From: a bacterium
Lineage (GTDB): Bacteria; SZUA-182; DTGQ01
Reading direction: 5' to 3'
DNA length: 22,761 nt
Assembly (NCBI GenBank): GCA_040752695.1
Contig: JBFMGO010000100.1
Span: forward strand, 1-22,761
Under the pieces are notes generated by a model. That model saw only the letters and a list, made by a program, of their open reading frames with translations, was not told the origin of the DNA and ran no database searches. The translations under genes and the position numbers were made by a program. The first letter of the stretch is position 1. Each line of letters opens with the position of its first letter. Of the stretch, positions 7,601 through 22,761 are shown piece after piece.

Positions 7601-10600
7601 TCACCGTTGGGTTCAAATATTCGAACCGGCACGGTTGGCAAAACCAGGTGACGCTAACATCAGATTAAAAGATGCCGGCGCTTATCTTATCACAGGAGGA
7701 CTGGGCGGCATAGGCCTCGTACTTGCCGAGCATCTCGCTAAAACAAAGAAGGCAAGGCTTATTCTCACAGGACGTTCCTTTTTCCCGGCCCGAAATGATT
7801 GGGATGAGTGGCTGAAGAGCCATGATCAAGAGGATAAAACAAGCATCAAGATACGAAAAGTACAGGAGCTGGAAAAGTTTGGAGCGAAAGTATCAGTTTT
7901 CAGTGCAGATGTCTCAAATAAGCTCCAAATGCAGCAGGTAATGACAGGTGCAAAGGAATACTTCGGCGGAATTGATGGGGTTATCCATGCAGCAGGTACT
8001 CCTGACAGTGGAGTAATACAGTTGAGATCACGTGAAAAATCAGAGGAAGTATTCTCCTCAAAAATAACCGGATTACTTATATTGGATACTCTTTTGCGGG
8101 AGAATTCAATCACTTTGGATTTTTTTCTTTTCTGCTCATCATTGGCTTCCATTTTGCCGCCCTTTGGCCAGGTAGCATATTGTGCTGCCAATATTTTTCT
8201 CGATACCTATGCCTGCTTTAAGGTTTCTCAAGGCGGGCCAGTTACTATCTCGCTTAACTGGGATACATGGCAGGAAGTTGGTATGGCCTTTGAGACAATG
8301 AAGGATTTATCTTCAAAGGGATACAGCCTTGAGAAAGGGATATTACCTTCCGAAGGAGTAGAAACCTTTCGATATGTCCTTGAAAGTGCACTATCAAATG
8401 TTGCCGTATCAACTACAGATCTGCAGATGCGGATTGAGCAAATGCATACCCTGGAAGACGAAAAGTCAAAGTTACTTGAAGCTTTTGAAGAAGACTCGCC
8501 CTCTGTAAATTATCTTCCAAGACCTGAATTAAGTACTGAATACATGGCCCCAATGAGCGAGGTTGAGCAAAGACTTGCCCAGATGTGGAAAGATTACTTA
8601 GGCTTTGAAGAGATAGGCATACATGATAATTTTTTTGAATTAGGGGGGGATTCATTAAAAGCTGTAATGATTATTTCAAAAATTCACGAGGAATTAAATT
8701 CAGAACCTCCCTTAGCCATATTTTTTGATAACCCTACCGTTCAATCCCTGGCCGATTACATTGAAAATTCACAGAGAAAGATATATCGAGGTATTGAGCC
8801 TGTTGAAAAGAGGAAGTATTATCCTCAGTCCTCGGCTCAAAAGCGGCTTTTTATTATAAATCAGTTTGATAATGTTGGTGTAGCTTATAATTTATTTTTA
8901 GTAAAAAAACTCGAAGGCATATTTAACAAAGACAGGTTCGAAAAGGCGGTAGAGGCTCTGATTGAGCGCCATGAGATACTAAGGACATCCTTTACCATTA
9001 TTCATGATGAACCGGTTCAGATAATCCATGACAGGATTGATTTTGAAGTAAGATATTATGAGCTTGATGAGAAAGAAATGAAGCAAGAAAGAATGAGAGA
9101 ATTAAGCAAAGATTTTTACCAGCCCTTTGATTTATCTCGTGCTCCTCTCTTTCGCATCGCCTGTGCCAGGATGGTACCTGACAATGAATTTTACTTTATA
9201 CTACAGATGCATCATATTATTACCGATGGCAGTTCCGGAAATATTCTCTATAACGATCTTATGCATTTTTACAAGGGAGAAAAACCGAAACCGCTTCAAA
9301 TACAATACAAAGATTTTGTCTGCTGGCAGAATACCCTCATTGAAACAGGACAGTTCAAAGAGCAGGAAGAATATTGGACCAATTTATTTTCAGGAGGGAT
9401 TCCAAGGTTGGATTTACCATTGGATTTTCCCCGCCCTGATTTTTTCATGTATAGGGGAGAAAGCTATACCTTCACGCTTGATAAGAACACTACCTCTCAA
9501 CTCAAGAATCTGTGTTTAAAGCATGAGGCTACTCTTTTCATGACTCTCCTGGCAACGCTCAATATCCTGTTTCACAAGTATACTGGAATGGAGGATATTG
9601 TTATTGGAAGTATTGTAGCCGGACGCCGTTATCATCCGGAGCTGCAGAATCTCACTGGTTTTTTTATAAATGTCCTGGCTATGCGGAATTACCCCGGGAC
9701 AGATAAAACCTTTCTTACATTCCTGAAGGAAGTCAAGAAAAACAGTATCAGGGCTTATGAAAACCAAGAATTTCAATTTGAGGAATTAATTGATAGATTA
9801 AATATTGAAAGAGATCCTTCAAGGAACCCCGTCTTTGATGTCTGCTTTGTCGTGCAAAATTTCCAGGATCGATCAGCCCAGATGTTGCAACCCAATGAGA
9901 TGAAGGTACTTTCCTTATTTAAAGAGCAAGTCGAGGGGACAACCCTTTTTGACTTGGACATAGAAGCATCTGAAAGCGGTGATAAAATTCAAGTTGACAT
10001 AAAATATTGTACATCATTATTTAGACGGGAGACTATAGAACGGCTTGCCGGGCATTGGCTGAACATTGTGAATCAGGTTTGCCTGAGACCTGATATGCGG
10101 ATAGCTGACATTGAATTACTTTCAGAGAATGAAAAAAGAAACATCTTGTTCGATTTTAACCGGACAGAAGTAAAATATCCGGAAAATAAAACCATCTGTG
10201 ATCTATTTAAAGAGCAGGTAGATCGGCTGCCTGATAAAGTGGCGGTGACATTTAAAGATTATTCAATTACCTATCAGGAATTAGACGAAAAATCTAACCA
10301 GGTTGCCAATTATTTACATGGTGCAATCCAGATCCGTGCGGAATCAAAGATCGGGATTTTTATGGATAAGTCCATTGAGGTCATCATCGCGGTATTTGGA
10401 ATTTGGAAAGCAGGCGGCGCCTATGTTCCCCTTGACCCCTCCCTTCCCTTAGAGCGAATGAGGGACATCATCGATGATGCAGGCATCTGCCACATTCTCT
10501 CCCGGGGAAAATATCTCAATGTTCTCAATCAATTGCAAGAGCAGTGTCCATCAATGAAAGCCTTCTGTTATCTTGACCGGTCCGATACCGGCCTGCTCCA

Positions 10601-13600
10601 AAGGTACAGTAAGGAGAGATTGAACCTGGCTATTCCTCCAAAGCATCTGGCCTATGTTATCTATACCTCAGGCTCCACAGGGAAACCCAAAGGAGTAATG
10701 GTAGAGCACAGGCAATATGTGAATGCTGCCTATGCCTGGAGGGATGTCTATAGGTTGAGGAGTCAGGACTCAGAAGTGAATCTTCTTCAAATAGCCGGTA
10801 TCTCCTTTGATGTATTTGCGGGTGATCTGGCCAAGGCACTTGTAAATGGAGGAAAGCTCATACTCTGCCCTGAGGATTTGTGCCCAGATTTTGAGGGAAT
10901 GTATGCCTTGATCAAAAATCAAAAGGTGAGCCTGTTTGAGTCAACCCCGGCCCTGATTATACCCTTTATGGATTACGTCTACACTTTTGGCTTGAATATA
11001 GATAGCTTGCAGTTGCTCATCCTTGGTTCGGATACCTGTAATGCTGAGGATTTCAGGACACTGAGTCTGCGCTTTGGGGACAGGATGAGAATTATCAATA
11101 GCTATGGGGTCACAGAGGCAACCATAGATACAAGCTGCTATGAAGAATCCCTTGGCAAACTTCTTCAATCCGGAACTGTGCCCATCGGAAGACCGCTTCC
11201 GAATATGACCTGCTACATCCTTGATGAAAATGAGAAGCTTCAGCCCATCGGAGTTCCCGGTGAACTATACATAGGGGGTGCTGGAGTATCAAGGGGGTAT
11301 GTGTCCCAAGAGGAATTAACGAAAGAAAGATTCAGAAGAAACCCTTATATCAAGGGAGAACGTGTCTATAAGACTGGAGATCTGGCAAAATGGCTTCCGG
11401 ATGGCACTCTTGCCTTTTTGGGCAGATCAGATTATCAGGTCAAGATCAGAGGGTACAGAATAGAGCCCGGAGAGATAGAGTCAAAGCTTAAAGGACACAG
11501 CGAGATAAAAGAGGCGGTGGTCATTGATGGTGAAGATAATGCTGGTGATAAATACCTATGTGCATATGTTGTTAGTGACCGAGCGATTGAGGCACAGGAA
11601 TTGGAAGAGCACCTGTCACAATCATTGCCCAGGTACATGATACCTTCCTTTTTTATTCAAGTGGAAAAAATACCACTGACTCCAAATGGCAAGGTAGACA
11701 GAAAGGCTTTGCCTTTACCTGCGATAGCTGCAGGGCAAAAGTATATTGGCCCAAGGGATAGAATCGAGGAAAAGTTAGTTGAAATCTGGTCAGAAATACT
11801 GAGAAAAGAAGGAGAGCTCATCAGCATTGATGCAAACTTTTTTCATTTGGGCGGGCACTCATTGAAGGCAACCATCCTTGCCTCCAGAATACATAAGGTG
11901 TTTGAGATAAAAGTGCCTCTGAACATCATTTTCAAGTATCCTACTATAGAAGAAATAGCCAAATACCTAAAGGGTAAAGAAAAAGATCAATACCTGGCTA
12001 TAAGGCCGGCGGATCAAAAGGAATATTATCCTCTATCATCAGCCCAAAAGAGACTCTATATTCTGCAGCAGTTCGAGGAAAATAGTATAAGCTATAACAT
12101 CCCCTTGATATTTCCCTTGGCAGAAGGACTGGATAAAGAGAGGCTTGAGGATATCCTCAAAAAATTAATAACCAGGCATGAGAGCCTGCGGACCTCTTTT
12201 GAAATAATCGATGATGAACCAGTGCAAAAAATTCACCAGGAGGTCTCCTTCTCGATAGAATACTACGAAACTGATGAGAGTGATCTTGACATCATAAGGA
12301 GCAACCTCACGAAAGCCTTTCACTTGAGCCAGGCTCCTCTTTTAAGAGCAATTTATGTGCAAATGATTTCTTCCTCCCGGGCGGCAGGTTTTATCGATAT
12401 GCATCACATTATTACTGATGCTGAGTCAAATCAAATCTTAATCCGGGAGATTAAGGCCCTGTATGAAGGGAGGGAATTGCCGGAGCTTCAGCTCCAGTAT
12501 AAGGATTTTTCCGAGTGGCAAAACAGCCGGGAGCAGCAGGAACAGATCAGGCAGCAGGAATTATACTGGCTGGCAATATTTTCAGATGAGATACCTGTGC
12601 TGAATCTGCCCACAGATTACCCAAGACCTCCCGTGCGAAGCTTTGAGGGCAGCACAGTCGACTTTACCTTAACGGAAAAAGAAACCCGGATACTAAAGGA
12701 GGCAGCCAGAGAGACAGAAACCACACTTTTTATGGTTGTTCTTTCCCTCTATACCATCCTTCTTTCAAGATTGAGCGGCCAGGAGGATATTGTTGTAGGA
12801 ACTCCCATAGCCGGACGAAGGCATGCTGATCTGGAAGGCATTGTCGGAATGTTCGTGAACACCCTGGCCCTGCGGAACTACCCACACGGGGGAAAAAGCC
12901 TGGCCGGTTTTTTCGCAGAGGTAAAGGAGAGGACTCTTAAGGCCTTTGAGAATCAAGAGTTTCAGTTTGAGGACCTGGTTGATAAACGAAAGATTCAAAG
13001 GGAAATGAGCCGCAATCCCCTGTTTGATGTAATGCTTAATATATTAAACCAGGCAGAGTCCCAGGAGGACATGCTCAGGGGCAATGAGCAGGATTTCTTT
13101 AGGCATAAAAAGAGTACAGCCAAATGTGATCTGACCCTGACCGCTCTGGAAACCGGGAAGAGGCTGTATTTTCAATTTGAATATAGCACCAGACTCTTTC
13201 ATCCGGCCACTATCGAAAGATTTATCAGCTCCTTTAGACAGCTCATCCAGGCAATGAGAAAGGGCATGCAGCAGCGGTTATCAGATCTTGAAATACTGTC
13301 TGACCGGGAAAGGAATCAGCTCCTCCATGATTTTAACCAAACCGAAAGTTCCTATCCAAAGGACAAGACCATTCAAGAGTTGTTTGAAGCGCAGGTTGAA
13401 ATGACGCCGGATAATATAGCTGTATCCTCCGGAGGCAAAAGCATTACCTATTCGGAATTAAATAAAAGAGCCAATCAACTGGCCAGGGTGCTGAGAGAAA
13501 AGGGAACAGGCAGGGACTGTATTGTAGGAATACTCATGAATCGCTCAATAGAGGTGGTGATCGGTATACTGGGAATAGTAAAGGCAGGGGGATGCTACTT

Positions 13601-16600
13601 GCCGATTGACCCGGAATACCCGCAAGAGAGAATGCTCTCTATGCTGGAGGATAGTAAGGCCCAAATCCTCCTGACCCAGGATACTTTCAGAAGTAAAGTA
13701 AAATTTCGTGGTGAAATGATCAATGGAGAAGATGAAAAGGTATATGCAGGAAATTCTTCTAATTTATCGAATATAAACAAGCCTGATGATCTGGTGTATG
13801 TAATCTATACCTCCGGGTCAACAGGAAAACCTAAGGGTGTGATGATATGCCACCAGGGGCTGATCAATTATATTGAATGGGCCAAAAAGGTATATATCAG
13901 AGATGATAATCCAGCCTTTCCATTATATTCGTCCTTATCTTTTGATTTAACAGTTACTTCAATCTTTACTCCCTTGATTTCAGGAAACAAGATAATAATT
14001 TATGAAGATGATAAGAAGGATCTTCTTATCGCCAGGGTGATACAAGAGAATAAGGCGGGAATAGTGAAAGTTACCCCGACCCACCTTAACCTGATAAAGG
14101 AGGGCTATTATGGCAAGTCCAGTATCAAGCGACTGATTGTAGGAGGAGAAGACCTTAAAACTGAGCTGGCCAGGCAGATATATACTGCTTTTGATGGGAA
14201 TATTGAAATATACAATGAATACGGGCCGACTGAAGCATCTGTGGGCTGTATGATTTATAAATTCGATTTTGAAAGTGATACAAGGCCATCTGTACCAATA
14301 GGCGTTCCGGCAGATAACGTTCAGGTGTATATAGTGGATAAGTACCTGAATCTTTTGCCAATAGGTGTTGCGGGCGAATTGTGCATCGGAGGGGATGGGT
14401 TGGCCAGGGGATACTTATACAGACCGGAACTGACCGCTGAAAAATTTATTCCTCATCCCTTTATCCAGGGAGAGAGAATATACAAAACAGGCGATCTGGC
14501 CAGATGGCTTCCTGATGGCCGGGTGGAATTTCTCGGCAGGATGGATCATCAGGTCAAAATAAGAGGATTCAGGATAGAGCTTGGAGAGATCGAAAGTCAG
14601 TTGCTCACTCATGAGGCTGTTCAAGAAGCTGTAGTGCTGGCTCAGGAGGCCGATGACGGCCACAACTATTTATGCGCCTATCTTGTTTCAGAAAGGGAAC
14701 TGACAACTGATGAATTAAGAAGGCATCTATCAAGAAGCCTGCCTGATTACATGATCCCTTCATATTTTATTCGGCTGGAGGAATTACCTTTTACCGCCAA
14801 TGGTAAAATAGATCGCCGAGCCTTGCTGGAGATGGGAAAAAACGCCGGTCTTAGCACAAGTGCCGCCTACCAGCCGCCGCGTAACCACATTGAAAAGCAA
14901 CTGGTGGAGATATGGGAAAAGGTCTTAAGAAGAAAAAATATTGGCATCAATGATAATTTTTTTATGGTTGGCGGAGACTCCATCAGGATTATTCAAATTA
15001 TTTCAAGGCTGAGCACGTTTGGCTATAAGCTGAGTGTAAGAGATGTATTCCTTCATCCGACCATAGCCGGATTAGCTCCTCTGGTTAAGTCTGTAAAGCG
15101 CATAGCTGAGCAAGGGCCGGTTACCGGACATCTGCCCTTGACTCCGAATGATTATACCTACAAAAAGCTGCCCATTGAGGTAGTGAGTCACCTGCAGGAG
15201 TTATATGAACTAAAAGATATATATACCTTATCTCCTCTGCAGGAGGGCATGTTATTTCATGCCCTGTATGATAAAACTTCTCCTGCCTATTTTGAGCAAT
15301 TCTCCTATCGATTGGAAGGCAGGCTGGAAATATCTCTGGTAGAAAGGTCGCTCCAGGAGCTCTCCCAGCGGCATGATGTATTAAGGACAGTATTTCTCTC
15401 TGAAAATATGGGCCGTCCCATTCAACTGGTGCTCAAAGACAGAGCCCCTGAATTTTCATTTGAAGATATACGTAACAGAGGCGGGGAGGCAGAAAGAAAG
15501 GCTTTCATAAGGGATTTCAAGGTCAGGGATAAGGAGCGTCTGTTTGACTTAAGCAAAGGTCCTCTCATCAGGATGAGCATCCTTCAAGTATCGGAGGCAA
15601 GCTATGAAGTTATCTGGAGCTATCACCATATCCTGATGGATGGCTGGTGTTCAGGGATACTGCTGGCAGAATTTTTCGAAATTTACCAGAGCCTGGTTGA
15701 AAATCGTCCCCACACACTACCGGAAGCACCACCCTATAGCAGATATATCGCCTGGCTGGAAAATCAGGACAGGGAGCAATCAAGAAGATATTGGATTGAT
15801 TATTTATCCCTCTATGATGAGGCAACAGGCATCCCGAAGTCAAAGAACAATCAAAAACCCGGTGGCGGCTATCAGCACGGGCACTCTGTATTCACTCTCT
15901 CAGAGGAGAGAACCCGCAGGTTGAGCCAACTTTCAGGAAGGTTGAAAGTTACCCTGAATACGATTATCCAGACTGTCTGGGGGGTCTTGCTCGCCAAATA
16001 TACTGGTAAAACAGATGTAGTTTTTGGGGCGGTAGTTTCAGGCCGACCATCAGAAATAGAAGGAATAGAGTCGATGGTTGGATTATTTATCAATGCTATC
16101 CCTGTGCGTATACAATATGACGAGAGCATGCAATTTGACACTTTGCTTCAGCAGGTACAAGAGAGAGCCATAGAAAGTGAACCTTACCATTATTATCCAC
16201 TGGCTGAAATACAGGCAAATTCCGAGTTAAAACAAAATTTAGTTGACCACCTGGTAGTATTTGAAAATTATCCTCTTGGCGAGATCATTGAAAACCTTCC
16301 TGTTAAAGTAACTCGGGGAGAAGTGTTCGAGCAGACCAATTATGACTTTAACCTTCTTGTTTCTCCGGGAGGCACATTAGGCATGGAATTTAAATATAAT
16401 GCAAACTTGTTCCAGGCTGATTTCGTACAATCCATAGCCAGGCACTTTCTTCACATAATAGACCAGATTATAGAAAATGAAAAAGTGACCATGAAAGCCC
16501 TCCATCTTCTCTCGGAAGAGGAAAAAAATCAAATCCTCCATGGCCTTAACAATACCAATTTCTCTTATCCGAAGGATAAGACTATCCATGAATTATTTGA

Positions 16601-19148
16601 AGAGCAGGTGGAGAAGACGCCTGAGAAAGCTGCTCTCGTCTATGAGGGAAAACAGCTTACCTATAGAGAATTAAATGAAAAAGCGAATCAGTTGGCCAGG
16701 GTACTGAGAGAGAAAAATATTACGCCAGACTCTGTGGTGAGTATTATGGTGGATCGGTCTTTGGAAATGGTCATCGGCCTTTTGGGAGTGCTCAAGGCCG
16801 GGGGAGCTTATATGCCGATCGATCCGGGCTATCCACAGGAGAGAATCAGGTTTATGCGTGAGGATAGCCGGTCGGCCCTGATTCTCACTCAGAGAAAATA
16901 TATTGATCAGTTGAAGGGGGAATATCAGGCCATTGAGTCAAGAGGACTTGAGTCAGGAGCTAAAGAAACTAAAAATTCATGGCACACAGGGAACATCATT
17001 GATTTGGAAAATCCGGCCCTTTACCAGTCACAATTTGATACATATCCAAAAACACCATGTTTAAACATCATTGATTTGGAAAATCCGGCCCTTTACCAGG
17101 GCAGTGCAGGGAATCTTGAGATAATAAACCGCAGCACTGATTTAGCTTATATAATCTATACCTCAGGGACAACCGGCAGACCCAAGGGAGTAATGATAGA
17201 ACATCGGTCACTGGTAAACTTTAGTTTTTGGCACAATAGCTACTATGAGGTTTCGCCGGAAGATAATTCGACTCAATATGCTGGGTTTGGATTTGATGCT
17301 TCAGTATTAGAGATATTCCCATACCTGATAAAGGGTGCGACCTTATATATTATCAGTGAAGCCATCAAGCTGGATATTGCAGCATTAAATAACTATTACG
17401 AAGAGCACAATATCACCATCAGTTTCTTACCCACCAACATAGGCGAGCAGTTTATGAGGCTGGAGAATACATCACTACGAAAGCTGCTTACCGGCGGTGA
17501 TAAGCTGCGTACTTTTATCAAAAGATCTTATGAATTGTACAATAACTATGGCCCGACCGAAAACACTGTGGTAAGCACAAGCTGCCGGATTGAGGAGAGT
17601 AAGGATAATCTTCCCATTGGAAAGCCTGTGAATAACTGCCAGGTCTATATTCTGGAAAAAGATACGCTCCACCTTCAACCCATAGGAGTGGCGGGAGAGA
17701 TATGCCTGTCCGGTGACGGGCTCTCAAGGGGCTATATAAACAAGCCGGATCTGACCGCAGAGAAATTTATTGATCATCCCTATCGAGAGGGCCATAGGCT
17801 TTACAGGACAGGAGATCTTGGCAGGTGGCTTCCTGATGGGAGCATCGAATTTATCAGCCGGATAGACGATCAGGTAAAAATACGCGGTTTTCGGATAGAA
17901 CCTGGCGAAATTGCGGCTCATATATTAAGAATTCCCGAAATAAAAGAAGCAGCGGTACTGGCCAAAGAGGCTCATGACGGCCATAAGTACATTTGCGCTT
18001 ACTTTGCTTCAGAGAAAGAGACGGCAGCTCAGGAGTTGAGGAAACACTTATCAAAGAGCCTGCCCGAGTACATGATCCCCTCTTATTTTATCCGGCTGGA
18101 ACAGTTGCCTTTAACCGCCAACGGCAAAATAGATCATAAGGCCTTGCTTGAAGTTAATGAAAACACCTCCACAGATGCTGCCTATCAACCGCCGGGAAAT
18201 AAGGTGGAAAAAAAGTTAGCTGAGATATGGGAAAAGGTCTTGGGGAGAAAAAATATCAGCCTGAATGATAATTTCTTTTTAATCGGTGGGCATTCTTTGA
18301 AGGCAATGAATGTAAATTATCTGATCCAGAAAGAATTAAAGGTCAACTTGCCCCTTAAGGAACTTTTCATCGACCCGACCATCAAAGGACTTGCTCAATA
18401 TATAGTAACACATGCACCTCAGAGATATAAAAAGAGAATGGAGGAGATACCCTTCATGGAGCTGAATGAAGAGCCATATTTGTTGCTCAATAAGTTAACC
18501 ATCAATAAGATATTCTGCTTTCCACCCATAACAGGCTATGGAACTGTATATATGGGAATGGCATCGTTAATTGAGAATTGCTCAATCTATGCATTTAATT
18601 ATCTACAAGATGAGGAAAATGTCATCCAGCACTATATTGATTACATCCTGGATATACAACCGAAAGGGCCTTATGTATTCTTAGGATATTCTGCGGGGGG
18701 AAATATTGCCTTTGAAATAACCAAAGAGCTTGAAAAAATGGGGCATGTCGTTTCAGATATCATTCTCCTTGATTCTTATAAAAAGAAAAAAACAAAAGCA
18801 CCATCAAAACAATCCCTGAGGAAATTTGAAGAAACAATAAATACTGTAATAGCGGAGCGGGGAGTTGTGTTTGAACCATACAGGCAAATGGTAGTAGAAA
18901 AAGCGAAACGGTTTAAGGTCTACTTGAGCAGTATTGATAATTCTGGTGTGGTAAATGCAAATTTACACCTGCTCACTGCGAACAGGCGGAAACATTACCA
19001 TGATGGGTGGGGAGACTCAACCAGTAAAGCGTACAGGGTCTATCAGGCTTACGGGAAGCATTGGGATATACTGGAGCCAGGATTTAGAGAAAATAACAGG
19101 GAAATACTACAAGGTCTGATCAATACGATATTTACCCCGGTGTCGTGA
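4614..19148 (+). CDS. Hybrid PKS-NRPS megasynthase, terminal: KS-AT*-KR-ACP-C-A-PCP-C-A-PCP-(E scar)-C-A-PCP-TE
   Basis: KS: EIAVIG, TACSTS (Cys 5142), HGTGT, KTNIGHL. AT: FPGQG, GHSIG, HAFH. KR: YLITGGLGGIG and GQVAYCAAN. ACP GGDS (Ser 8652). Three C domains (HHIITDG, HHIITDA, HHILMDG), three A domains with intact core motifs, PCPs GGHS/GGDS/GGHS, and TE GYSAG (Ser 18690). Confidence 0.97.
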   Translation: MGKNLTGFEIAVIGMYGRFPGADNIEEFWNNLINGVESITFFSDEQLSNIGAGLVKNTNSVNAGGILQNKDSFDASFFEYSPKEVEIMDPQMRVLHECVWSALEDAGYSPGQYKGLIGLYAGASPHFYWEALSTLTGKVNDFGIFAAQQLFDKDFLTTQISYKLDLRGPSVTLYTACSTSLVAIHMACRALIGGECDLALAGGVSISSHDRSEYSYQEGMIVAPDGHCRSFDAKAQGTVFGEGAGIIVLKPLENAIEDNDFIHAVIKSTAINNDGKRKVGYTAPSIQGQAEVIRTALELAEVDPESISYVEAHGTGTVLGDPIEIEALKLAFNTNRRGYCGIGSVKTNIGHLDAAAGVVSVIKTILAMKHKIIPKNLHFKTPNPKINFEESPFFVVKELKKWEDGAHPIRAGINSFGIGGTNAHLILEEAPQIDDTTRSRPYQILLLSAKTNTALGQLAENLADHLRKNPGLNLADVAYTLQTGREAFRYRRMIVCSDIDEAIELLSSAQGKENISLIKEDEKYAVFMFPGQGSQYINMGKELYDTEIVFRRELDRCFKILSQITGNDLKEILYPSAADTRSAKINQTEYAQPLLFIFEYALAKLLMSWGIRPKAMIGHSIGEFVAAHLSGVFSLEEAIKLVATRGRLMQQLPLHTSHAFHKDKKAIFFETGPGRALGIFAEQHKERDPGQKIINMVRHPKEGVLDGKYLLSKLGDAWLSGLSIDWFYSEEKRKRLPLPTYPFEKRSYQIKGDLFKLGGISQQRKLTKNPNIADWFYVPSWKRTLLPPESAYQPSIQHNWLIFTDETGLGSRIIKRLKAQNQNVTIVKARAEFSKTDDQEYSINPEQDNDYYRLFECLRKEGKLPEKIVHLWTISDDSGNDDKDYTPELVDEYNNLGFYSLLNIARVIGRTSITAQIKVITNRLQEVTEHDFLSPCKATVLGPVKVIPHEFPNIHCICIDIEWPGSGGNNALRMVEILGRELESETPDMIIAYRGNHRWVQIFEPARLAKPGDANIRLKDAGAYLITGGLGGIGLVLAEHLAKTKKARLILTGRSFFPARNDWDEWLKSHDQEDKTSIKIRKVQELEKFGAKVSVFSADVSNKLQMQQVMTGAKEYFGGIDGVIHAAGTPDSGVIQLRSREKSEEVFSSKITGLLILDTLLRENSITLDFFLFCSSLASILPPFGQVAYCAANIFLDTYACFKVSQGGPVTISLNWDTWQEVGMAFETMKDLSSKGYSLEKGILPSEGVETFRYVLESALSNVAVSTTDLQMRIEQMHTLEDEKSKLLEAFEEDSPSVNYLPRPELSTEYMAPMSEVEQRLAQMWKDYLGFEEIGIHDNFFELGGDSLKAVMIISKIHEELNSEPPLAIFFDNPTVQSLADYIENSQRKIYRGIEPVEKRKYYPQSSAQKRLFIINQFDNVGVAYNLFLVKKLEGIFNKDRFEKAVEALIERHEILRTSFTIIHDEPVQIIHDRIDFEVRYYELDEKEMKQERMRELSKDFYQPFDLSRAPLFRIACARMVPDNEFYFILQMHHIITDGSSGNILYNDLMHFYKGEKPKPLQIQYKDFVCWQNTLIETGQFKEQEEYWTNLFSGGIPRLDLPLDFPRPDFFMYRGESYTFTLDKNTTSQLKNLCLKHEATLFMTLLATLNILFHKYTGMEDIVIGSIVAGRRYHPELQNLTGFFINVLAMRNYPGTDKTFLTFLKEVKKNSIRAYENQEFQFEELIDRLNIERDPSRNPVFDVCFVVQNFQDRSAQMLQPNEMKVLSLFKEQVEGTTLFDLDIEASESGDKIQVDIKYCTSLFRRETIERLAGHWLNIVNQVCLRPDMRIADIELLSENEKRNILFDFNRTEVKYPENKTICDLFKEQVDRLPDKVAVTFKDYSITYQELDEKSNQVANYLHGAIQIRAESKIGIFMDKSIEVIIAVFGIWKAGGAYVPLDPSLPLERMRDIIDDAGICHILSRGKYLNVLNQLQEQCPSMKAFCYLDRSDTGLLQRYSKERLNLAIPPKHLAYVIYTSGSTGKPKGVMVEHRQYVNAAYAWRDVYRLRSQDSEVNLLQIAGISFDVFAGDLAKALVNGGKLILCPEDLCPDFEGMYALIKNQKVSLFESTPALIIPFMDYVYTFGLNIDSLQLLILGSDTCNAEDFRTLSLRFGDRMRIINSYGVTEATIDTSCYEESLGKLLQSGTVPIGRPLPNMTCYILDENEKLQPIGVPGELYIGGAGVSRGYVSQEELTKERFRRNPYIKGERVYKTGDLAKWLPDGTLAFLGRSDYQVKIRGYRIEPGEIESKLKGHSEIKEAVVIDGEDNAGDKYLCAYVVSDRAIEAQELEEHLSQSLPRYMIPSFFIQVEKIPLTPNGKVDRKALPLPAIAAGQKYIGPRDRIEEKLVEIWSEILRKEGELISIDANFFHLGGHSLKATILASRIHKVFEIKVPLNIIFKYPTIEEIAKYLKGKEKDQYLAIRPADQKEYYPLSSAQKRLYILQQFEENSISYNIPLIFPLAEGLDKERLEDILKKLITRHESLRTSFEIIDDEPVQKIHQEVSFSIEYYETDESDLDIIRSNLTKAFHLSQAPLLRAIYVQMISSSRAAGFIDMHHIITDAESNQILIREIKALYEGRELPELQLQYKDFSEWQNSREQQEQIRQQELYWLAIFSDEIPVLNLPTDYPRPPVRSFEGSTVDFTLTEKETRILKEAARETETTLFMVVLSLYTILLSRLSGQEDIVVGTPIAGRRHADLEGIVGMFVNTLALRNYPHGGKSLAGFFAEVKERTLKAFENQEFQFEDLVDKRKIQREMSRNPLFDVMLNILNQAESQEDMLRGNEQDFFRHKKSTAKCDLTLTALETGKRLYFQFEYSTRLFHPATIERFISSFRQLIQAMRKGMQQRLSDLEILSDRERNQLLHDFNQTESSYPKDKTIQELFEAQVEMTPDNIAVSSGGKSITYSELNKRANQLARVLREKGTGRDCIVGILMNRSIEVVIGILGIVKAGGCYLPIDPEYPQERMLSMLEDSKAQILLTQDTFRSKVKFRGEMINGEDEKVYAGNSSNLSNINKPDDLVYVIYTSGSTGKPKGVMICHQGLINYIEWAKKVYIRDDNPAFPLYSSLSFDLTVTSIFTPLISGNKIIIYEDDKKDLLIARVIQENKAGIVKVTPTHLNLIKEGYYGKSSIKRLIVGGEDLKTELARQIYTAFDGNIEIYNEYGPTEASVGCMIYKFDFESDTRPSVPIGVPADNVQVYIVDKYLNLLPIGVAGELCIGGDGLARGYLYRPELTAEKFIPHPFIQGERIYKTGDLARWLPDGRVEFLGRMDHQVKIRGFRIELGEIESQLLTHEAVQEAVVLAQEADDGHNYLCAYLVSERELTTDELRRHLSRSLPDYMIPSYFIRLEELPFTANGKIDRRALLEMGKNAGLSTSAAYQPPRNHIEKQLVEIWEKVLRRKNIGINDNFFMVGGDSIRIIQIISRLSTFGYKLSVRDVFLHPTIAGLAPLVKSVKRIAEQGPVTGHLPLTPNDYTYKKLPIEVVSHLQELYELKDIYTLSPLQEGMLFHALYDKTSPAYFEQFSYRLEGRLEISLVERSLQELSQRHDVLRTVFLSENMGRPIQLVLKDRAPEFSFEDIRNRGGEAERKAFIRDFKVRDKERLFDLSKGPLIRMSILQVSEASYEVIWSYHHILMDGWCSGILLAEFFEIYQSLVENRPHTLPEAPPYSRYIAWLENQDREQSRRYWIDYLSLYDEATGIPKSKNNQKPGGGYQHGHSVFTLSEERTRRLSQLSGRLKVTLNTIIQTVWGVLLAKYTGKTDVVFGAVVSGRPSEIEGIESMVGLFINAIPVRIQYDESMQFDTLLQQVQERAIESEPYHYYPLAEIQANSELKQNLVDHLVVFENYPLGEIIENLPVKVTRGEVFEQTNYDFNLLVSPGGTLGMEFKYNANLFQADFVQSIARHFLHIIDQIIENEKVTMKALHLLSEEEKNQILHGLNNTNFSYPKDKTIHELFEEQVEKTPEKAALVYEGKQLTYRELNEKANQLARVLREKNITPDSVVSIMVDRSLEMVIGLLGVLKAGGAYMPIDPGYPQERIRFMREDSRSALILTQRKYIDQLKGEYQAIESRGLESGAKETKNSWHTGNIIDLENPALYQSQFDTYPKTPCLNIIDLENPALYQGSAGNLEIINRSTDLAYIIYTSGTTGRPKGVMIEHRSLVNFSFWHNSYYEVSPEDNSTQYAGFGFDASVLEIFPYLIKGATLYIISEAIKLDIAALNNYYEEHNITISFLPTNIGEQFMRLENTSLRKLLTGGDKLRTFIKRSYELYNNYGPTENTVVSTSCRIEESKDNLPIGKPVNNCQVYILEKDTLHLQPIGVAGEICLSGDGLSRGYINKPDLTAEKFIDHPYREGHRLYRTGDLGRWLPDGSIEFISRIDDQVKIRGFRIEPGEIAAHILRIPEIKEAAVLAKEAHDGHKYICAYFASEKETAAQELRKHLSKSLPEYMIPSYFIRLEQLPLTANGKIDHKALLEVNENTSTDAAYQPPGNKVEKKLAEIWEKVLGRKNISLNDNFFLIGGHSLKAMNVNYLIQKELKVNLPLKELFIDPTIKGLAQYIVTHAPQRYKKRMEEIPFMELNEEPYLLLNKLTINKIFCFPPITGYGTVYMGMASLIENCSIYAFNYLQDEENVIQHYIDYILDIQPKGPYVFLGYSAGGNIAFEITKELEKMGHVVSDIILLDSYKKKKTKAPSKQSLRKFEETINTVIAERGVVFEPYRQMVVEKAKRFKVYLSSIDNSGVVNANLHLLTANRRKHYHDGWGDSTSKAYRVYQAYGKHWDILEPGFRENNREILQGLINTIFTPVS
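4635..8765 (+). other. PKS module KS-AT*-KR-ACP (no DH/ER)
   Basis: KS catalytic triad intact; AT shortened to about 195 aa; KR retains the catalytic Tyr; no DH motif seen between AT and KR. Confidence 0.9.
8815..11975 (+). other. NRPS module C-A(Orn)-PCP
   Basis: Code DVGEIGSIDK (from FDVFAG, FESTP, LILGSD, NSYGVTEATID) matches the classical ornithine signature of the GrsB/TycC/fengycin Orn modules. Confidence 0.85.
12020..15085 (+). other. NRPS module C-A(Asn)-PCP; PCP of the pre-epimerase type
   Basis: Code DLTKIGEVGK (from FDLTVT, VKVTP, LIVGGE, NEYGPTEASVG) is the classical Asn signature. PCP motif is FFMVGGDSI (Ser 14979). Confidence 0.88.
15100..15200 (+). other. Scar of a deleted epimerization (E) domain
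   Basis: AEQGPVTGHLPLTP (E-domain start) is joined directly to LTPNDYTYKKLPIE (E-to-C linker end) through the shared LTP at 15138-15146. Confidence 0.8.
15215..18405 (+). other. NRPS module C(DCL-type)-A(Leu-like)-PCP
   Basis: C domain shows DIYTLSPLQEGMLFH, WSYHHILMDGWC and VVFGAVVSGRP, typical of post-epimerase DCL domains. Code DALFLGNVVK is one residue from the Leu signature DAWFLGNVVK. Confidence 0.78.
16992..17099 (+). repeat. Perfect 36-bp direct repeat x2 separated by a 36-bp unique segment, in frame within an A domain
   Basis: AACATCATTGATTTGGAAAATCCGGCCCTTTACCAG occurs at 16992-17027 and 17064-17099, each encoding NIIDLENPALYQ. The insert at 17028-17063 is TCACAATTTGATACATATCCAAAAACACCATGTTTA. 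Confidence 0.97.
18505..19145 (+). other. Type I thioesterase (chain release)
   Basis: IFCFPP, GPYVFLGYSAGG, DIILLDS and YGKHWDIL (catalytic His) resemble SrfA-C/GrsB-type terminal TEs. Confidence 0.9.
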
Positions 19149-19190: not shown

Positions 19191-20555
19191 TTGAGAGATT
19201 TGATATGTCTCATGGCCGCAGGCGGTACCACTGGAGATGTAAGGCCGCTCTTGGGATTAGCTGTCGGCTTAAAGCAGAGGGGTCACAGGATTCGTTTCTT
19301 TGCTGATCCGGGATTTAAAGATCTGGCTGAACAGAGGGGGATCACCGGGGAAGAGTGGTTCAGTTCAAGCATTATCCCTCAGCCCGTCTTTTGGCGAACC
19401 GAAAGTGCCCAGAGATATCTATGGGGCAAACTGCCAAGAATACGTGACCTGATGTTTATCCGGAAGTTACACAAAAGCCATTTCCAAAAGGCAGAAGCAT
19501 TCTTAAAGCACCTTGATGCCCGGAATAACTCAGCGATTGTTGCTTCAATAGCCAGCCTATCTGCCCGGTCTGTTCTTTATAAATTTGGCCCCAAGTGCGC
19601 TAAAATTATCTCCTGTCCTATGCCGTATCAGCCAAGCAGTACTTTCTCACTGGCCCCTTCGGAGCCTTTCTTTAAAACCCCGATTGGAAAATGGTTCTTT
19701 CATATTCTCTGCTATCGAAGATTGATAGGTTTCAGAAGAAAGAAATATGAGAATTTTATAAAAAAAACTTACCATCTTGTTTCTGTAAGTTCAGAATTTT
19801 TCCCTCGACCGAAAGACTGGCTGCCGAATATGCAAGTTACCGGCTATATTCCACTTCAGGAGACAGGGGACTGGCAACCACCAGACTCTCTGGTTCAATT
19901 CTTAGAGAGTGGAGATGAGCCTCTATACGTCGGCTTTGGTAGCCTGGCATTATTTTCCGGACTGCGCGGAAAAAAACTGGCAGCAAAAGTAATCGAAGCA
20001 GTTTCTCGGCTTAATCAGCGCTGCATTATCCAATCCCCAGACTTGTCTGATCTTTCTCATCCTTCCAATATTTATATTATGGATTATGCCGCTCCTCACC
20101 ACTGGCTTTTCCCTCGTTGTGCAGTTATCGTGCATCACGGCGGGTATGGTACAACTCATGCGTGTTTGTCCGCGGGAAAGCCCATGGTTATCTACCCATT
20201 TCATACCGACGAGTTTCTCTGGGCGAAAAAGGTTGCCGAGTTTGGAATTGGACCGACTCATACAGTAAGAATCTGGAAACTGGACCAGGAGGAATTGATC
20301 AAAGGTGTTTTATTTGCCCTTAAGCCGAGTGTACAAAGAGCTGCCCAAAGGTTTTCTGTCATAAGAAATGAAGATGGCCTTTCTGTGCAGATTTCGGCTA
20401 TTGAGAGCATCATAGAGCACCATCAACGTGGCCTCTCTCCATGGCAATGGAATATGCCCTCTGACCTCACTGTTGATGACACAGCCGGGCAATACCAGAA
20501 ATCAAAGGACAGAGAACAGGAGGGGCGCAAAGTCGAATGTCATCTCATGAGGTGA
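19191..20555 (+). CDS. Family GT1 glycosyltransferase (sterol-GT / GtfB-like clade), paralog A
   Basis: N-terminal GGTTGDVRP; FPRPKDW...VTGY; PLYVGFGS; PHHWLFPRC...HHGGYGTT. The TTG start is supported by the upstream AAAGGAAGG and by alignment to paralog B. Confidence 0.92.
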   Translation: MRDLICLMAAGGTTGDVRPLLGLAVGLKQRGHRIRFFADPGFKDLAEQRGITGEEWFSSSIIPQPVFWRTESAQRYLWGKLPRIRDLMFIRKLHKSHFQKAEAFLKHLDARNNSAIVASIASLSARSVLYKFGPKCAKIISCPMPYQPSSTFSLAPSEPFFKTPIGKWFFHILCYRRLIGFRRKKYENFIKKTYHLVSVSSEFFPRPKDWLPNMQVTGYIPLQETGDWQPPDSLVQFLESGDEPLYVGFGSLALFSGLRGKKLAAKVIEAVSRLNQRCIIQSPDLSDLSHPSNIYIMDYAAPHHWLFPRCAVIVHHGGYGTTHACLSAGKPMVIYPFHTDEFLWAKKVAEFGIGPTHTVRIWKLDQEELIKGVLFALKPSVQRAAQRFSVIRNEDGLSVQISAIESIIEHHQRGLSPWQWNMPSDLTVDDTAGQYQKSKDREQEGRKVECHLMR

Positions 20556-21820
20556 TATGCCTTCTGACGAAAAATGGGACTGCCGGGGATGTGCGGCCGC
20601 TTTTAAGACTGGCTGCCGGATTGAAGCAGCGCGGCTACAGGATTTACTTCTTGGCTGATCAAGGATATAGAGAATCGGCCAGGCGGATCGGAATTACTGA
20701 GGAAGAGTGGTTTTGTCCGGGCGATATTCCACTCTCCATTTTTTTACGAACTGAAAGTGCCCAGAGGTGGCTGCGGGGCAAAGCTCCAAGAGTGAGTGAC
20801 CTGATATCTGCCCGGAAATTCCGGAAAAACCAGTCCGAAAAGATAGAAGCATTCTTAGAGCACCTTGAGGCTTGGAATAATTCAAGAATTATCGCTTCTA
20901 TAGCCAGTATATCTGCCTGGTCCCTTCTCCATAGGTTTGGCCCCGCGTGCGCGAAAATTATTTCCTGCCCTGCGCCTTTTCAACCAAGCAGCACCTTTTC
21001 CCTCGCTCCACCAGGGATTTTTTGGCAAACACAGGTTGGAAAGTGGTTTTTCAGGAACTTGCGCCAACGCCGCATTACAGGAAACACCAGAGAAAAATAC
21101 CTGAAGTTCATGCACAAGAGCTATCATCTTGTTTCGGTAAGCCCGGAATTCTTTCCGCGACCAAAGGACTGGCTGCCGAATATGCAGGTCACCGGCTATA
21201 TCCCCTTACGGGATATGGAAGACTGGCAGCCGCCGGATTCTCTGGTCCAATTTTTAGAAAGCAAAGATGCACCGGTATATGTCGGTTTTGGGAGCTTGCC
21301 ATTTTTTGCCGGGCAGTGGGGGAAAAAACTGGCCACCGAGATAATCGAGGCCTTTTCCATTCTCGGACTGCGCTGCATCATCCAGTCTTGCGACTTATCT
21401 GATTTTCCTCATCCTCCCCCTGTGTATATTATGGACTATGCCGCCCCTCACCACTGGCTTTTTCCCCGCTGCCAGGTTGCAGTGCACAATGGAGGATATG
21501 GCACAACCCACGCCTGCCTTTCTGCCGGTAAACCCATGGTCATTTATCCTTTTCAGGCAGATCAGTTCCTCTGGGCGAAAAAGGCGGCAGAGTTTGGGAT
21601 TGGACCAAATGATGTAATGAGAATCGGGAAGTTGAATCGAAAAAGATTGATCGCTGATATTCTCTTTGCTCTTGAACCGGATACACAAAAGGCTGCCCAA
21701 AGATTTTCCGCAGCGATACGGGAAGAAGATGGTTTTCCCGTTCAGATGTCAGCTATCGAGAGCATCATTGAGCACCATCAGCGCAACCTTTCCCCTTTAG
21801 AATGGAATATGCCTTTATGA
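20537..21820 (+). CDS. Family GT1 glycosyltransferase, paralog B
   Basis: GTAGDVRP; FPRPKDW; PVYVGFGS; HNGGYGTT; PFQADQFLW. AGGAGG at 20518-20523 precedes the ATG. Overlaps paralog A by 19 bp. Confidence 0.92.
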   Translation: MSSHEVICLLTKNGTAGDVRPLLRLAAGLKQRGYRIYFLADQGYRESARRIGITEEEWFCPGDIPLSIFLRTESAQRWLRGKAPRVSDLISARKFRKNQSEKIEAFLEHLEAWNNSRIIASIASISAWSLLHRFGPACAKIISCPAPFQPSSTFSLAPPGIFWQTQVGKWFFRNLRQRRITGNTREKYLKFMHKSYHLVSVSPEFFPRPKDWLPNMQVTGYIPLRDMEDWQPPDSLVQFLESKDAPVYVGFGSLPFFAGQWGKKLATEIIEAFSILGLRCIIQSCDLSDFPHPPPVYIMDYAAPHHWLFPRCQVAVHNGGYGTTHACLSAGKPMVIYPFQADQFLWAKKAAEFGIGPNDVMRIGKLNRKRLIADILFALEPDTQKAAQRFSAAIREEDGFPVQMSAIESIIEHHQRNLSPLEWNMPL

Positions 21821-22761
21821 ATGAAAATGTGTATGACGGGAAGATCAACGGCCTTAAGTATATATCGTTTTATGAATCAAGTGGTTATGGGAATGCAGCT
21901 CGCTCCTATCTGCACGCTGTCAGACGTGCAGGAATCCCCTTCACCTGGAGCCCAATGGTGCCCGGGAGGGCGCTGGGCTTAGGATATGAACCATTCAAAG
22001 GGAAGGCCATAGGCGATCCTGATTTAGATCGGTTTTGTAACCGGCAGATTGACTATGATGCGGTTATTATCCATACTGTCCCGGAGTATTTTCCCTTTTG
22101 CATAAAACAGGAGTCAAACAACACACGTACTTTCGGATATACGGTCTGGGAAACAGATAAGATTCCCCGCCACTGGCCTGCACTTTTGAACCTGGTCGAT
22201 CATTTACTTGTCCCCTGCCACTGGAACAGGGAAGTTTTTCGGCAGGGCAGCGTTAAGACTCCCATTGATGTTGTTCCTCATATCTTTGAAGAAAAAGAGC
22301 CGATAAAAGGTGGATTCCCCTGGGACATACCGCCATCCGATTATATGTTTTATACTATTGGGGTCTGGACAGAGAGAAAGGCCGTCTGGAACGTAGTCAG
22401 ATGCTATTTGGATACTTTCACCGCACATGATCCGACCCTTTTGGTTATTAAAACGACCGGCAAGGACCTTACCAGGAGATTTTTCCGAAAATGGCTCGGG
22501 AGCACGAAATATGCCGTTTCAAAAATTATCCGCCGCTACCGCTCACCGGCCAGAATCATGCTCATAGATAATGAGATAAGTGACCAGGATATTCTGAGAT
22601 TGCACTATCGAGGAGACTGCTATATTTCATTATGCAGGTCAGAAGGGTGGGGATTAGGTGCATTTGATGCAGCCGGATACGGCAAGCCGGTGATTATGAC
22701 CGGTTTTGGTGGACAATTGGACTACTTACACCGGGATTTGGCTTTTCTGGTGGACTATTCC
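21817..22761 (+). CDS. Family GT4 glycosyltransferase, 3'-truncated (absent from the ORF track)
   Basis: ATG 21817 overlaps the upstream stop (ATGA) and the frame is open to the window end: MNENVYDGKINGLKYISFYESSGYGNAARSY...GYTVWETDKIP...LLVPCHWN...ERK...CYISLCRSEGWGLGAFDAAGYGKPVIMTGFGG, with a GT4 E-x7-acid motif at 22642-22668. Confidence 0.9.
   Translation, partial: MNENVYDGKINGLKYISFYESSGYGNAARSYLHAVRRAGIPFTWSPMVPGRALGLGYEPFKGKAIGDPDLDRFCNRQIDYDAVIIHTVPEYFPFCIKQESNNTRTFGYTVWETDKIPRHWPALLNLVDHLLVPCHWNREVFRQGSVKTPIDVVPHIFEEKEPIKGGFPWDIPPSDYMFYTIGVWTERKAVWNVVRCYLDTFTAHDPTLLVIKTTGKDLTRRFFRKWLGSTKYAVSKIIRRYRSPARIMLIDNEISDQDILRLHYRGDCYISLCRSEGWGLGAFDAAGYGKPVIMTGFGGQLDYLHRDLAFLVDYS

What the first reader, a model, noticed from the sequence alone, without database searches (positions are those of the whole stretch)
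14958..15650. Epimerization domain excised at an LTP microhomology, leaving pre-E PCP and DCL partners
The Asn-module PCP has GGDSI (typical before E domains) and the next C domain is DCL-type, yet only about 45 residues separate them. They read as the E start VTGHLPLTP fused to the E-end linker LTPNDYTYKKL. The roughly 450-aa E domain appears deleted between its two LTP motifs (ttgactccg, 15138-15146). Either a D-selective C domain now accepts L-Asn (a natural stereochemistry switch), or D-Asn is supplied by a trans-acting racemase or epimerase.
Basis: partly seen in the sequence, partly recalled or inferred. Interest (0 to 1): 0.8.

Follow-up and report, generated by a model that had tools for sequence, protein, structure and literature searches.

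The report
Peptide synthetase lost its epimerase domain
A bacterial peptide-assembly gene lacks, in frame, the 436-residue part that flips an amino acid from L to D in a related gene, while the next enzyme still carries its D-preferring residue, so it is likely a recent case of a known, recurring loss and would make an L-form product inefficiently.

Summary
An orthologous gene in a same-family genome (G005) has carrier-E-DCL here; the window gene lacks exactly 436 residues (1308 nt) between the Thr-Pro of the E-domain start and the Thr-Pro of the E-end TPSD-type motif, in frame. The next C domain is DCL (HMM 591 vs 206 bits; sister to the ortholog's DCL). The shared word is securely only Thr-Pro: the ortholog has Tyr, not Leu, before the second copy. 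No read or contig bridges the junction, so an artefact is not excluded (about 10%). No stand-alone E domain or Asp/Asn racemase was found in the genome, though the cluster's 5' part is unassembled. E-less carrier-DCL joints are not rare (36 against 462 E-DCL in 374 homologs) and are in print for glycopeptides. Most E-less DCLs have lost the acidic residue shown to gate D-donors (14 of 35 keep it, against 408 of 462); the window keeps it. Best reading: a recent deletion in a cluster being pruned by in-frame deletions, passing L-Asn through an unadapted DCL slowly; a stalled line is the main rival. A close strain dropped the whole following module at an 11-nt repeat.

The parts
4614..19148 (+). 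Hybrid PKS-NRPS gene, 4844 aa, one open frame: KS, truncated AT, KR, ACP, C-A-PCP, C-A-PCP, (E missing), C-A-PCP, thioesterase
13383..14807 (+). Adenylation domain of the E-less module; pocket residues read by eye match the recalled L-Asn code. Its core is far less like the ortholog's (21-49% in 100-column blocks) than the flanks (58-77%), i.e. a swapped A core; the ortholog's reads as Thr-type by eye
   Evidence: code assignment by eye and from recall, not computed
14898..15077 (+). Carrier (PCP) domain with the Asp-type core motif (14970-14984) typical of carriers that serve E domains; 73% identical to the ortholog's pre-E carrier region
   Evidence: 249 of 312 Asp-type carriers are followed by E; 3 of 242 His-type
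15108..15146 (+). Remnant of the carrier-E linker and first residues of the E domain
   Evidence: codon alignment to the ortholog's E start
15138..15146 (+). Deletion junction (Leu-Thr-Pro, residues 3509-3511); 1308 nt missing relative to G005
15141..15227 (+). E-end TPSD-type motif and E-to-C linker, retained
   Evidence: motif named in PMC11546977
15216..16538 (+). DCL-type condensation domain; catalytic His motif intact at 15624-15644; 65% identical to the ortholog's DCL
16329..16331 (+). Glu3906, aligned to SrfA-C Glu382 / GrsB1 Glu386, the D-donor gate residue; retained
   Evidence: alignment (position counted by eye), PMC10949931
16596..19076 (+). Last A domain (Leu-type by eye; swapped core relative to the ortholog), His-type carrier, thioesterase
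14949..14959 (+). 11-nt direct repeat, copy 1 (copy 2 at 18264-18274); a related strain's contig joins the two copies and skips 3315 nt
6189..6640 (+). Acyltransferase remnant lacking roughly 120 residues of its second half, apparently in two in-frame cuts
   Evidence: (profile positions 1-125 of 319), alignment; end coordinate approximate
1..4599 (+). Upstream hybrid gene, 5' end off the contig: KR-ACP-C-A-PCP
19191..22761 (+). Three glycosyltransferase genes downstream (two paralogs 67% identical, one cut by the contig end); no racemase among them

Best explanation
The gene lacks, in frame, the 436-residue epimerization domain present in its ortholog, likely through a recent deletion between two short Thr-Pro-coding matches, and the D-preferring condensation domain left behind would likely accept L-Asn at a reduced rate. 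Shown: the missing stretch, its ends, the intact frame, the DCL class, the retained gate Glu. Inferred: that the deletion is real DNA, that it used microhomology, that it is recent (both E remnants still unworn, gate not yet changed), that the A domain loads L-Asn, and that the line still turns over. The predicted product is a polyketide-extended peptide ending in a basic residue, L-Asn and a Leu-like residue, possibly glycosylated.
For: Ortholog with E in the same position and co-linear flanks at 58-77% identity. The cut is in register because both Thr-Pro copies are conserved in-frame motifs (47 of 79 intact units; median spacing 438 aa). The 14.5-kb frame has no stop and the catalytic motifs of KS, KR, carriers, C, A and TE domains look intact by eye. 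The cluster shows other in-frame losses: truncated AT; in run X1 a 3315-nt module skip at an 11-nt repeat with no cover over 15268-16519, and a net 540-nt AT removal (both divisible by 3). Wild-type DCL domains leak L-donors even when D competes: GrsB1 73% D-form, SrfA-C 83% (PMC10949931). Glycopeptide DCL domains work on L-donors after E loss (PMC1894796). Only the window, 1 of 36 E-less joints, matched both an E-start and an E-end remnant; 7 more matched the end only.
Against: No read or contig bridges the junction. The gate Glu is kept, and full-length wild-type GrsB gave 100% D-form product. Natural switches between L and D modules were reported to exchange carrier and C domain together, the DCL being 'mandatory' on E gain (PMC8097286). 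The close strain in X1 has removed this carrier-DCL-A unit, which fits a unit that did not work. The ancestral bases at the second copy are unknown, so microhomology longer than Thr-Pro is unproven. No expression or product data.
Confidence: 0.45

Rival explanations
1. The deletion is real but the DCL domain rejects L-Asn, so the line stalls before the last module; the cluster is decaying or is rescued only by losing the whole module.
For: Gate Glu and the GrsB1-Asn256 equivalent are retained. Full GrsB made only D-form peptide. X1's strain joins the Asn module directly to the last carrier and thioesterase. AT is eroded. The two same-genus genomes lack the cluster with this query. The G005 ortholog's frame is itself split in its A domain.
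Against: No stop or frameshift in 14.5 kb; every deletion seen keeps the frame (though in-register deletions do so by construction). The GrsB figure was measured with D-donor available.
Confidence: 0.3
2. The junction is an assembly or library chimera and the organism has the E domain.
For: Single draft assembly in 239 contigs; no independent sequence spans the junction (pattern scans 0 of 16 hits were NRPS, with the own genome possibly left out).
Against: No E-domain sequence anywhere else in the 96.6% complete assembly. The two ends share only a few bases in the ortholog, far under usual assembler word lengths (general knowledge). In-frame deletions occur elsewhere in this cluster and in an independent strain.
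Confidence: 0.1
3. D-Asn is supplied in trans by a racemase or a stand-alone E domain, so the DCL still sees a D-donor.
For: It would explain the retained gate Glu. The cluster's 5' part is not in the assembly. Two uncharacterised Asp/Glu-racemase-superfamily genes lie on contig C133. Direct D-amino-acid loading is known for D-Ala and D-Ser (PMC3897469, PMC8719831).
Against: Only four condensation-family domains in the genome, all in the window. No Asp racemase over cut-off; the C130 gene is glutamate racemase; the C133 genes sit beside transporter-like genes on another contig and match no NCBIfam family. In G005 the genes just upstream of the cluster read by eye as HEPN, nucleotidyltransferase and CHAT-type, not racemase. 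The A pocket reads as the ordinary L-Asn type by eye.
Confidence: 0.08
4. The C domain itself epimerizes (dual E/C) or has shifted selectivity through residues other than the known gate.
For: It has Ser at the GrsB1-Phe155 position (14 of 462 E-preceded DCLs). In MIBiG only 47% of DCLs have an acidic gate, and glycopeptide shifts could not be tied to known positions.
Against: It groups with an ordinary E-preceded DCL (SH-aLRT 99) on a short branch (0.30 against 0.22 for the ortholog); position 155 affects side-chain, not stereo, choice. No dual E/C reference was in my tree or HMM set, so that class was not tested directly.
Confidence: 0.07

Closest known systems
Glycopeptide-antibiotic NRPS modules 3/4 and 6/7 (DCL-type C domains with LCL activity after E loss; PMC1894796)
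   Same: A C domain of DCL sequence type follows a module with no working E domain.
   Different: There L-acceptance is known from the products and the loss is old. Here the junction is fresh and base-mappable against an E-bearing ortholog, and activity is unknown.
Gate-residue switch GrsB1-E386L / TycB1-E385L / SrfAC-E382L (PMC10949931)
   Same: Same DCL family (SrfA-C and TycB1 are among the best solved relatives); same position examined.
   Different: The window keeps Glu, so it lacks the engineered D-to-L change.
Natural carrier-LCL / carrier-E-DCL cassette exchange (PMC8097286)
   Same: Changes the stereochemistry of one residue; A-core swaps are seen in this cluster family too.
   Different: There carrier and C domain are exchanged with the E domain; here E alone is cut out, leaving both D-type partners.
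Trans-racemase D-amino-acid loading (cyclosporin, fusaricidin, argyrin; PMC3897469, PMC8949500, PMC8719831)
   Same: A module without E.
   Different: Described cases use D-Ala or D-Ser; no matching racemase found with this cluster.
COM-domain fusion sites TPSD and the C1 motif (PMC11546977)
   Same: The right-hand breakpoint is the TPSD-type motif that engineers use as the E-domain boundary.
   Different: Here it is an internal linker of one protein and a natural cut.

Membership tests
DCL condensation domain | Scores and groups with DCL rather than LCL or E | tested here: met
   Self-built HMMs: DCL 591, LCL 206, E 76 bits; quick tree, sister to G005 DCL at 99, inside the DCL side at 98; best PDB hits are BacC, TycB1, SrfA-C
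DCL condensation domain | Intact catalytic His motif and acidic gate residue | tested here: met
DCL condensation domain | Preceded by an E domain | tested here: not met
DCL condensation domain | Prefers D-donor in catalysis | not testable with these tools
   needs enzyme assay
E-less DCL after E-domain loss (glycopeptide-like) | Ortholog or ancestor has E at this place | tested here: met
   G005 contig C217
E-less DCL after E-domain loss (glycopeptide-like) | Product carries the L residue | not testable with these tools
   no product known
E-less DCL after E-domain loss (glycopeptide-like) | Adaptive change at the stereo gate (seen in 21 of 35 other E-less domains) | tested here: not met
Trans-racemase-fed module | Racemase or stand-alone E in or near the cluster | tested here: inconclusive
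   none in window or over cut-off in genome; 5' part of the cluster unassembled
Trans-racemase-fed module | A domain activates the D isomer | not testable with these tools
   pocket read by eye as L-Asn type
Dual E/C domain | Dual-class sequence signature and clade | not tested
   no dual E/C reference; closeness to an E-preceded DCL argues against
Microhomology-mediated deletion | Identical short repeat at both ends in the parent allele | tested here: inconclusive
   only a 65-73% identical ortholog is available; 4 of 6 Thr-Pro bases shared there

The most novel reading that the evidence does not exclude
This is the intermediate state of a natural two-step D-to-L switch: the E domain is first cut out cleanly between conserved Thr-Pro motifs, and the orphaned DCL then either loses its gate Glu (as 21 of 35 other E-less domains have) or the whole module is dropped (as in the X1 strain). 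The window allele, the G005 ortholog and the X1 allele would be three states of one cluster, and the E-less homologs a natural catalogue of D-to-L gate substitutions.
Probability: 0.35. Interest if true: 0.55.

Novelty: new member of a known kind. Interest (0 to 1): 0.33.

Why it matters
Stereochemistry is hard to change in engineered NRPSs because DCL domains filter for D-donors. A natural, base-mappable E excision gives a ready boundary to test, and the E-bearing ortholog is a matched control. The side result, that E-less DCL domains mostly lack the acidic gate residue, links a laboratory mutation (PMC10949931) to natural evolution. I did not find it in the papers read, but the searches were few and the Wheadon and Townsend 2021 paper could not be read. 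It also warns that DCL calls over-predict D residues in genome mining. The locus itself is an uncharacterised cluster from a small phylum (20 genomes held).

Tried and rejected
Read support: two runs held small shares (0.07, 0.05), both contigs only; no RNA holder listed. No record bridges 15138-15146; one X2 contig covers 14662-15138 and stops there, another covers 15248-15996, which proves nothing. Recurrence of the same junction: a degenerate junction pattern gave 4 hits in genome contigs and 12 in metagenome contigs, 0 of 16 in an NRPS; the pattern is narrow, so this only says this exact fusion was not found. More orthologs: of 19 other genomes in the phylum only G005 has the cluster with this query. 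An in-genome donor or stand-alone E: none. First counts of E-less joints included 3 false rows from an indexing bug (P0007, P0019, P0172); fixed. The careful tree did not finish; the quick tree is reported. A single-sequence structure prediction was submitted and never returned. Earlier scan findings: none returned. The Wheadon and Townsend 2021 paper is not held. A-domain pocket codes and catalytic motifs were not computed; they are by-eye readings against recalled codes. A possible C-domain stub upstream gave only a weak pairwise match. Papers looked at that did not bear on the question: PMC10562733, PMC10510592, PMC12751119 (passages only).

Full report
Setting. The window is the whole of contig C100 of a 6.05-Mb draft genome (239 contigs, 96.6% complete) from a phylum with 20 genomes held. 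It carries the 3' part of a hybrid PKS-NRPS gene (1-4599), a 4844-aa hybrid gene (4614-19148) and three glycosyltransferase genes. The large gene reads KS, truncated AT, KR, ACP, then three C-A-PCP modules and a thioesterase. These are the genome's only four condensation-family domains.

Observation. The carrier of the second NRPS module has the Asp-type core motif at 14970. Among 577 carrier-like motifs in the first 121 proteins, 249 of 312 Asp-type ones were followed by an E domain against 3 of 242 His-type ones; PMC10212144 (passages) gives the same pairing. Only 46 residues separate the Pfam carrier and condensation matches. A search of 61 genomes found an ortholog in G005, same family, other genus, where the matching carrier (73%) and C domain (65%) lie 1.3 kb apart in one frame. 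Alignment shows co-linear flanks and one gap of 436 residues; at codon level the window follows the ortholog's E start up to Thr-Pro and the ortholog's E end from Thr-Pro on. TIGR01720, an E-domain family, hits the ortholog's stretch only. So the E domain is absent and was cut at its two conserved Thr-Pro motifs. The second is the TPSD motif known as the E boundary (PMC11546977, passages). One correction: the ortholog has Tyr before the second Thr-Pro, and Leu stands there in only 30 of 79 intact units, so a 9-nt Leu-Thr-Pro microhomology is possible but not shown.

Class of the C domain. HMMs that I built from architecture-defined homologs score it 591 bits as DCL, 206 as LCL and 76 as E. In a quick tree of 47 domains it is sister to the ortholog's E-preceded DCL (SH-aLRT 99). 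Best solved relatives are BacC, TycB1 and SrfA-C. Dual E/C references were not included. PMC10949931 (parts 1-3 of 5 read: abstract, results, discussion; supplement not opened) shows that one Glu (GrsB1 386, SrfA-C 382) gates D-donors: D-form product fell from 73% to 20% in the two-module test, from 100% to 29% in full GrsB and from 83% to 12% in SrfA-C on change to Leu. The window keeps this Glu (residue 3906), as does the ortholog.

Is it real DNA? Not proven. Neither of two related-strain runs bridges the junction. Against an artefact: no E sequence elsewhere in the assembly, only a few shared bases at the ends, and other in-frame losses in the same cluster. The AT domain lacks about 120 residues. 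A contig from run X1, about 95% identical, joins 14948 to 18264, skipping 3315 nt at an exact 11-nt repeat, with depth 0 over 15268-16519; another removes a net 540 nt of the AT remnant. X1 is one sample and contigs only. I put the artefact risk at about 10%.

Trans supply. The window has no racemase. The genome has a glutamate racemase among housekeeping-looking genes (C130), an alanine racemase (C35), a weak second PF01168 match (C121), and two unassigned Asp/Glu-racemase-superfamily genes on C133; no aspartate-racemase match passes cut-off. The trans-AT and first KS seen in G005 have no clear counterpart in this assembly, so the cluster's 5' end is missing and a gene there cannot be excluded.

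How rare? In 374 proteins (372 search hits, the window protein and the ortholog) I counted 462 E-preceded DCLs, 140 N-terminal DCLs and 36 DCLs directly after a carrier, the window included; 35 of the 36 carriers are Asp-type. The set is biased towards such joints because two of the three searches used the junction as query. On the tree the 9 closest E-less domains need 6 label changes (at least 4 on starred branches), so the loss has happened repeatedly. It is in print: glycopeptide C domains of DCL type act on L-donors after E loss (PMC1894796, section 26 read whole). PMC8097286 (passages) reports instead that natural L/D changes swap carrier, E and C together.

What is new here. At the gate position 408 of 462 E-preceded DCLs are acidic against 14 of 35 other E-less ones (Fisher p 2e-10); among the closest domains 243 of 275 against 2 of 9; one per protein, 14 of 30. 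Kin are not independent, distant rows may be misaligned at this column, and PMC10949931 finds an acidic gate in only 47% of MIBiG DCLs, so the p values overstate. Still, the trend suggests that E loss is usually followed or preceded by loss of the gate. The window is the only one of 36 that matched both E remnants and it keeps the gate, which fits a recent event. A narrow pattern for this exact fusion found no other NRPS in either collection (0 of 16 hits).

Mechanism. Most likely (0.45) the A domain loads L-Asn (by-eye code, recalled reference), no epimerization occurs, and the unadapted DCL condenses the L-donor slowly, giving the L-epimer of a polyketide-peptide. Nearly as likely (0.30) the line stalls; the X1 allele, which drops the mismatched unit and fuses the Asn module to the terminal carrier and thioesterase, could be the escape from that state, though whether its ancestor had E is unknown. 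Artefact 0.10, trans D-Asn 0.08, dual or otherwise shifted C domain 0.07.

Verdict. A real-looking, precisely mappable new example of a known and recurrent kind of NRPS change; function untested. Interest 0.33. Other papers: PMC3897469, PMC8949500, PMC8719831, PMC10562733, PMC10510592, PMC12751119 were seen as passages only; Wheadon and Townsend 2021 was not readable and may cover E loss in more depth. No supplements were opened.

Noticed in passing
window 6189-6640; run X1 joint 6175-6729: The AT domain is cut down in frame in the window and nearly removed in the X1 strain, while G005 has a stand-alone AT gene heading the cluster (L014 3200-4471): looks like a stepwise move from cis-AT to trans-AT.
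   Followed up: partly
window 14949-14959 and 18264-18274: Exact 11-nt repeat in two carriers; the X1 strain skips the 3315 nt between, losing one whole module.
   Followed up: partly
window 13383-14807 and 16596-18128 against L013; first module against L014/L015: A-domain cores differ between the window and G005 (Asn- versus Thr-type, Leu- versus Gly-type, by eye) within otherwise co-linear genes: subdomain swaps. The A domain before them is conserved (74%).
   Followed up: partly
window about 1237-1310: Possible stub of a C-domain start between the ACP and the C domain of the upstream gene; weak pairwise match (13 of 34 identities).
   Followed up: partly
window about 17000-17120, inside the last A domain: A 12-residue stretch occurs twice, 24 residues apart, in a variable loop (seen).
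   Followed up: no
L013 about 10166-10250 and L014 ACP-C linker: G005's cluster contains short repeated elements translated in frame; one coincides with a frame split in an A domain, so the E-bearing ortholog may itself be broken or misassembled.
   Followed up: no
window 19191-21820: Tandem glycosyltransferase paralogs, 67% identical; not found in G005 with this query, covered by X1 contigs.
   Followed up: partly
P0242, P0303: Proteins with four and three successive E-less carrier-DCL joints, none with an acidic gate.
   Followed up: no
G000 contigs C69, C22, C98, C132: Further PKS-like genes elsewhere in the genome.
   Followed up: no
G000:C133 174-1058 and 3133-4005: Two paralogous Asp/Glu-racemase-superfamily genes with no NCBIfam match, beside transporter-like genes.
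   Followed up: partly
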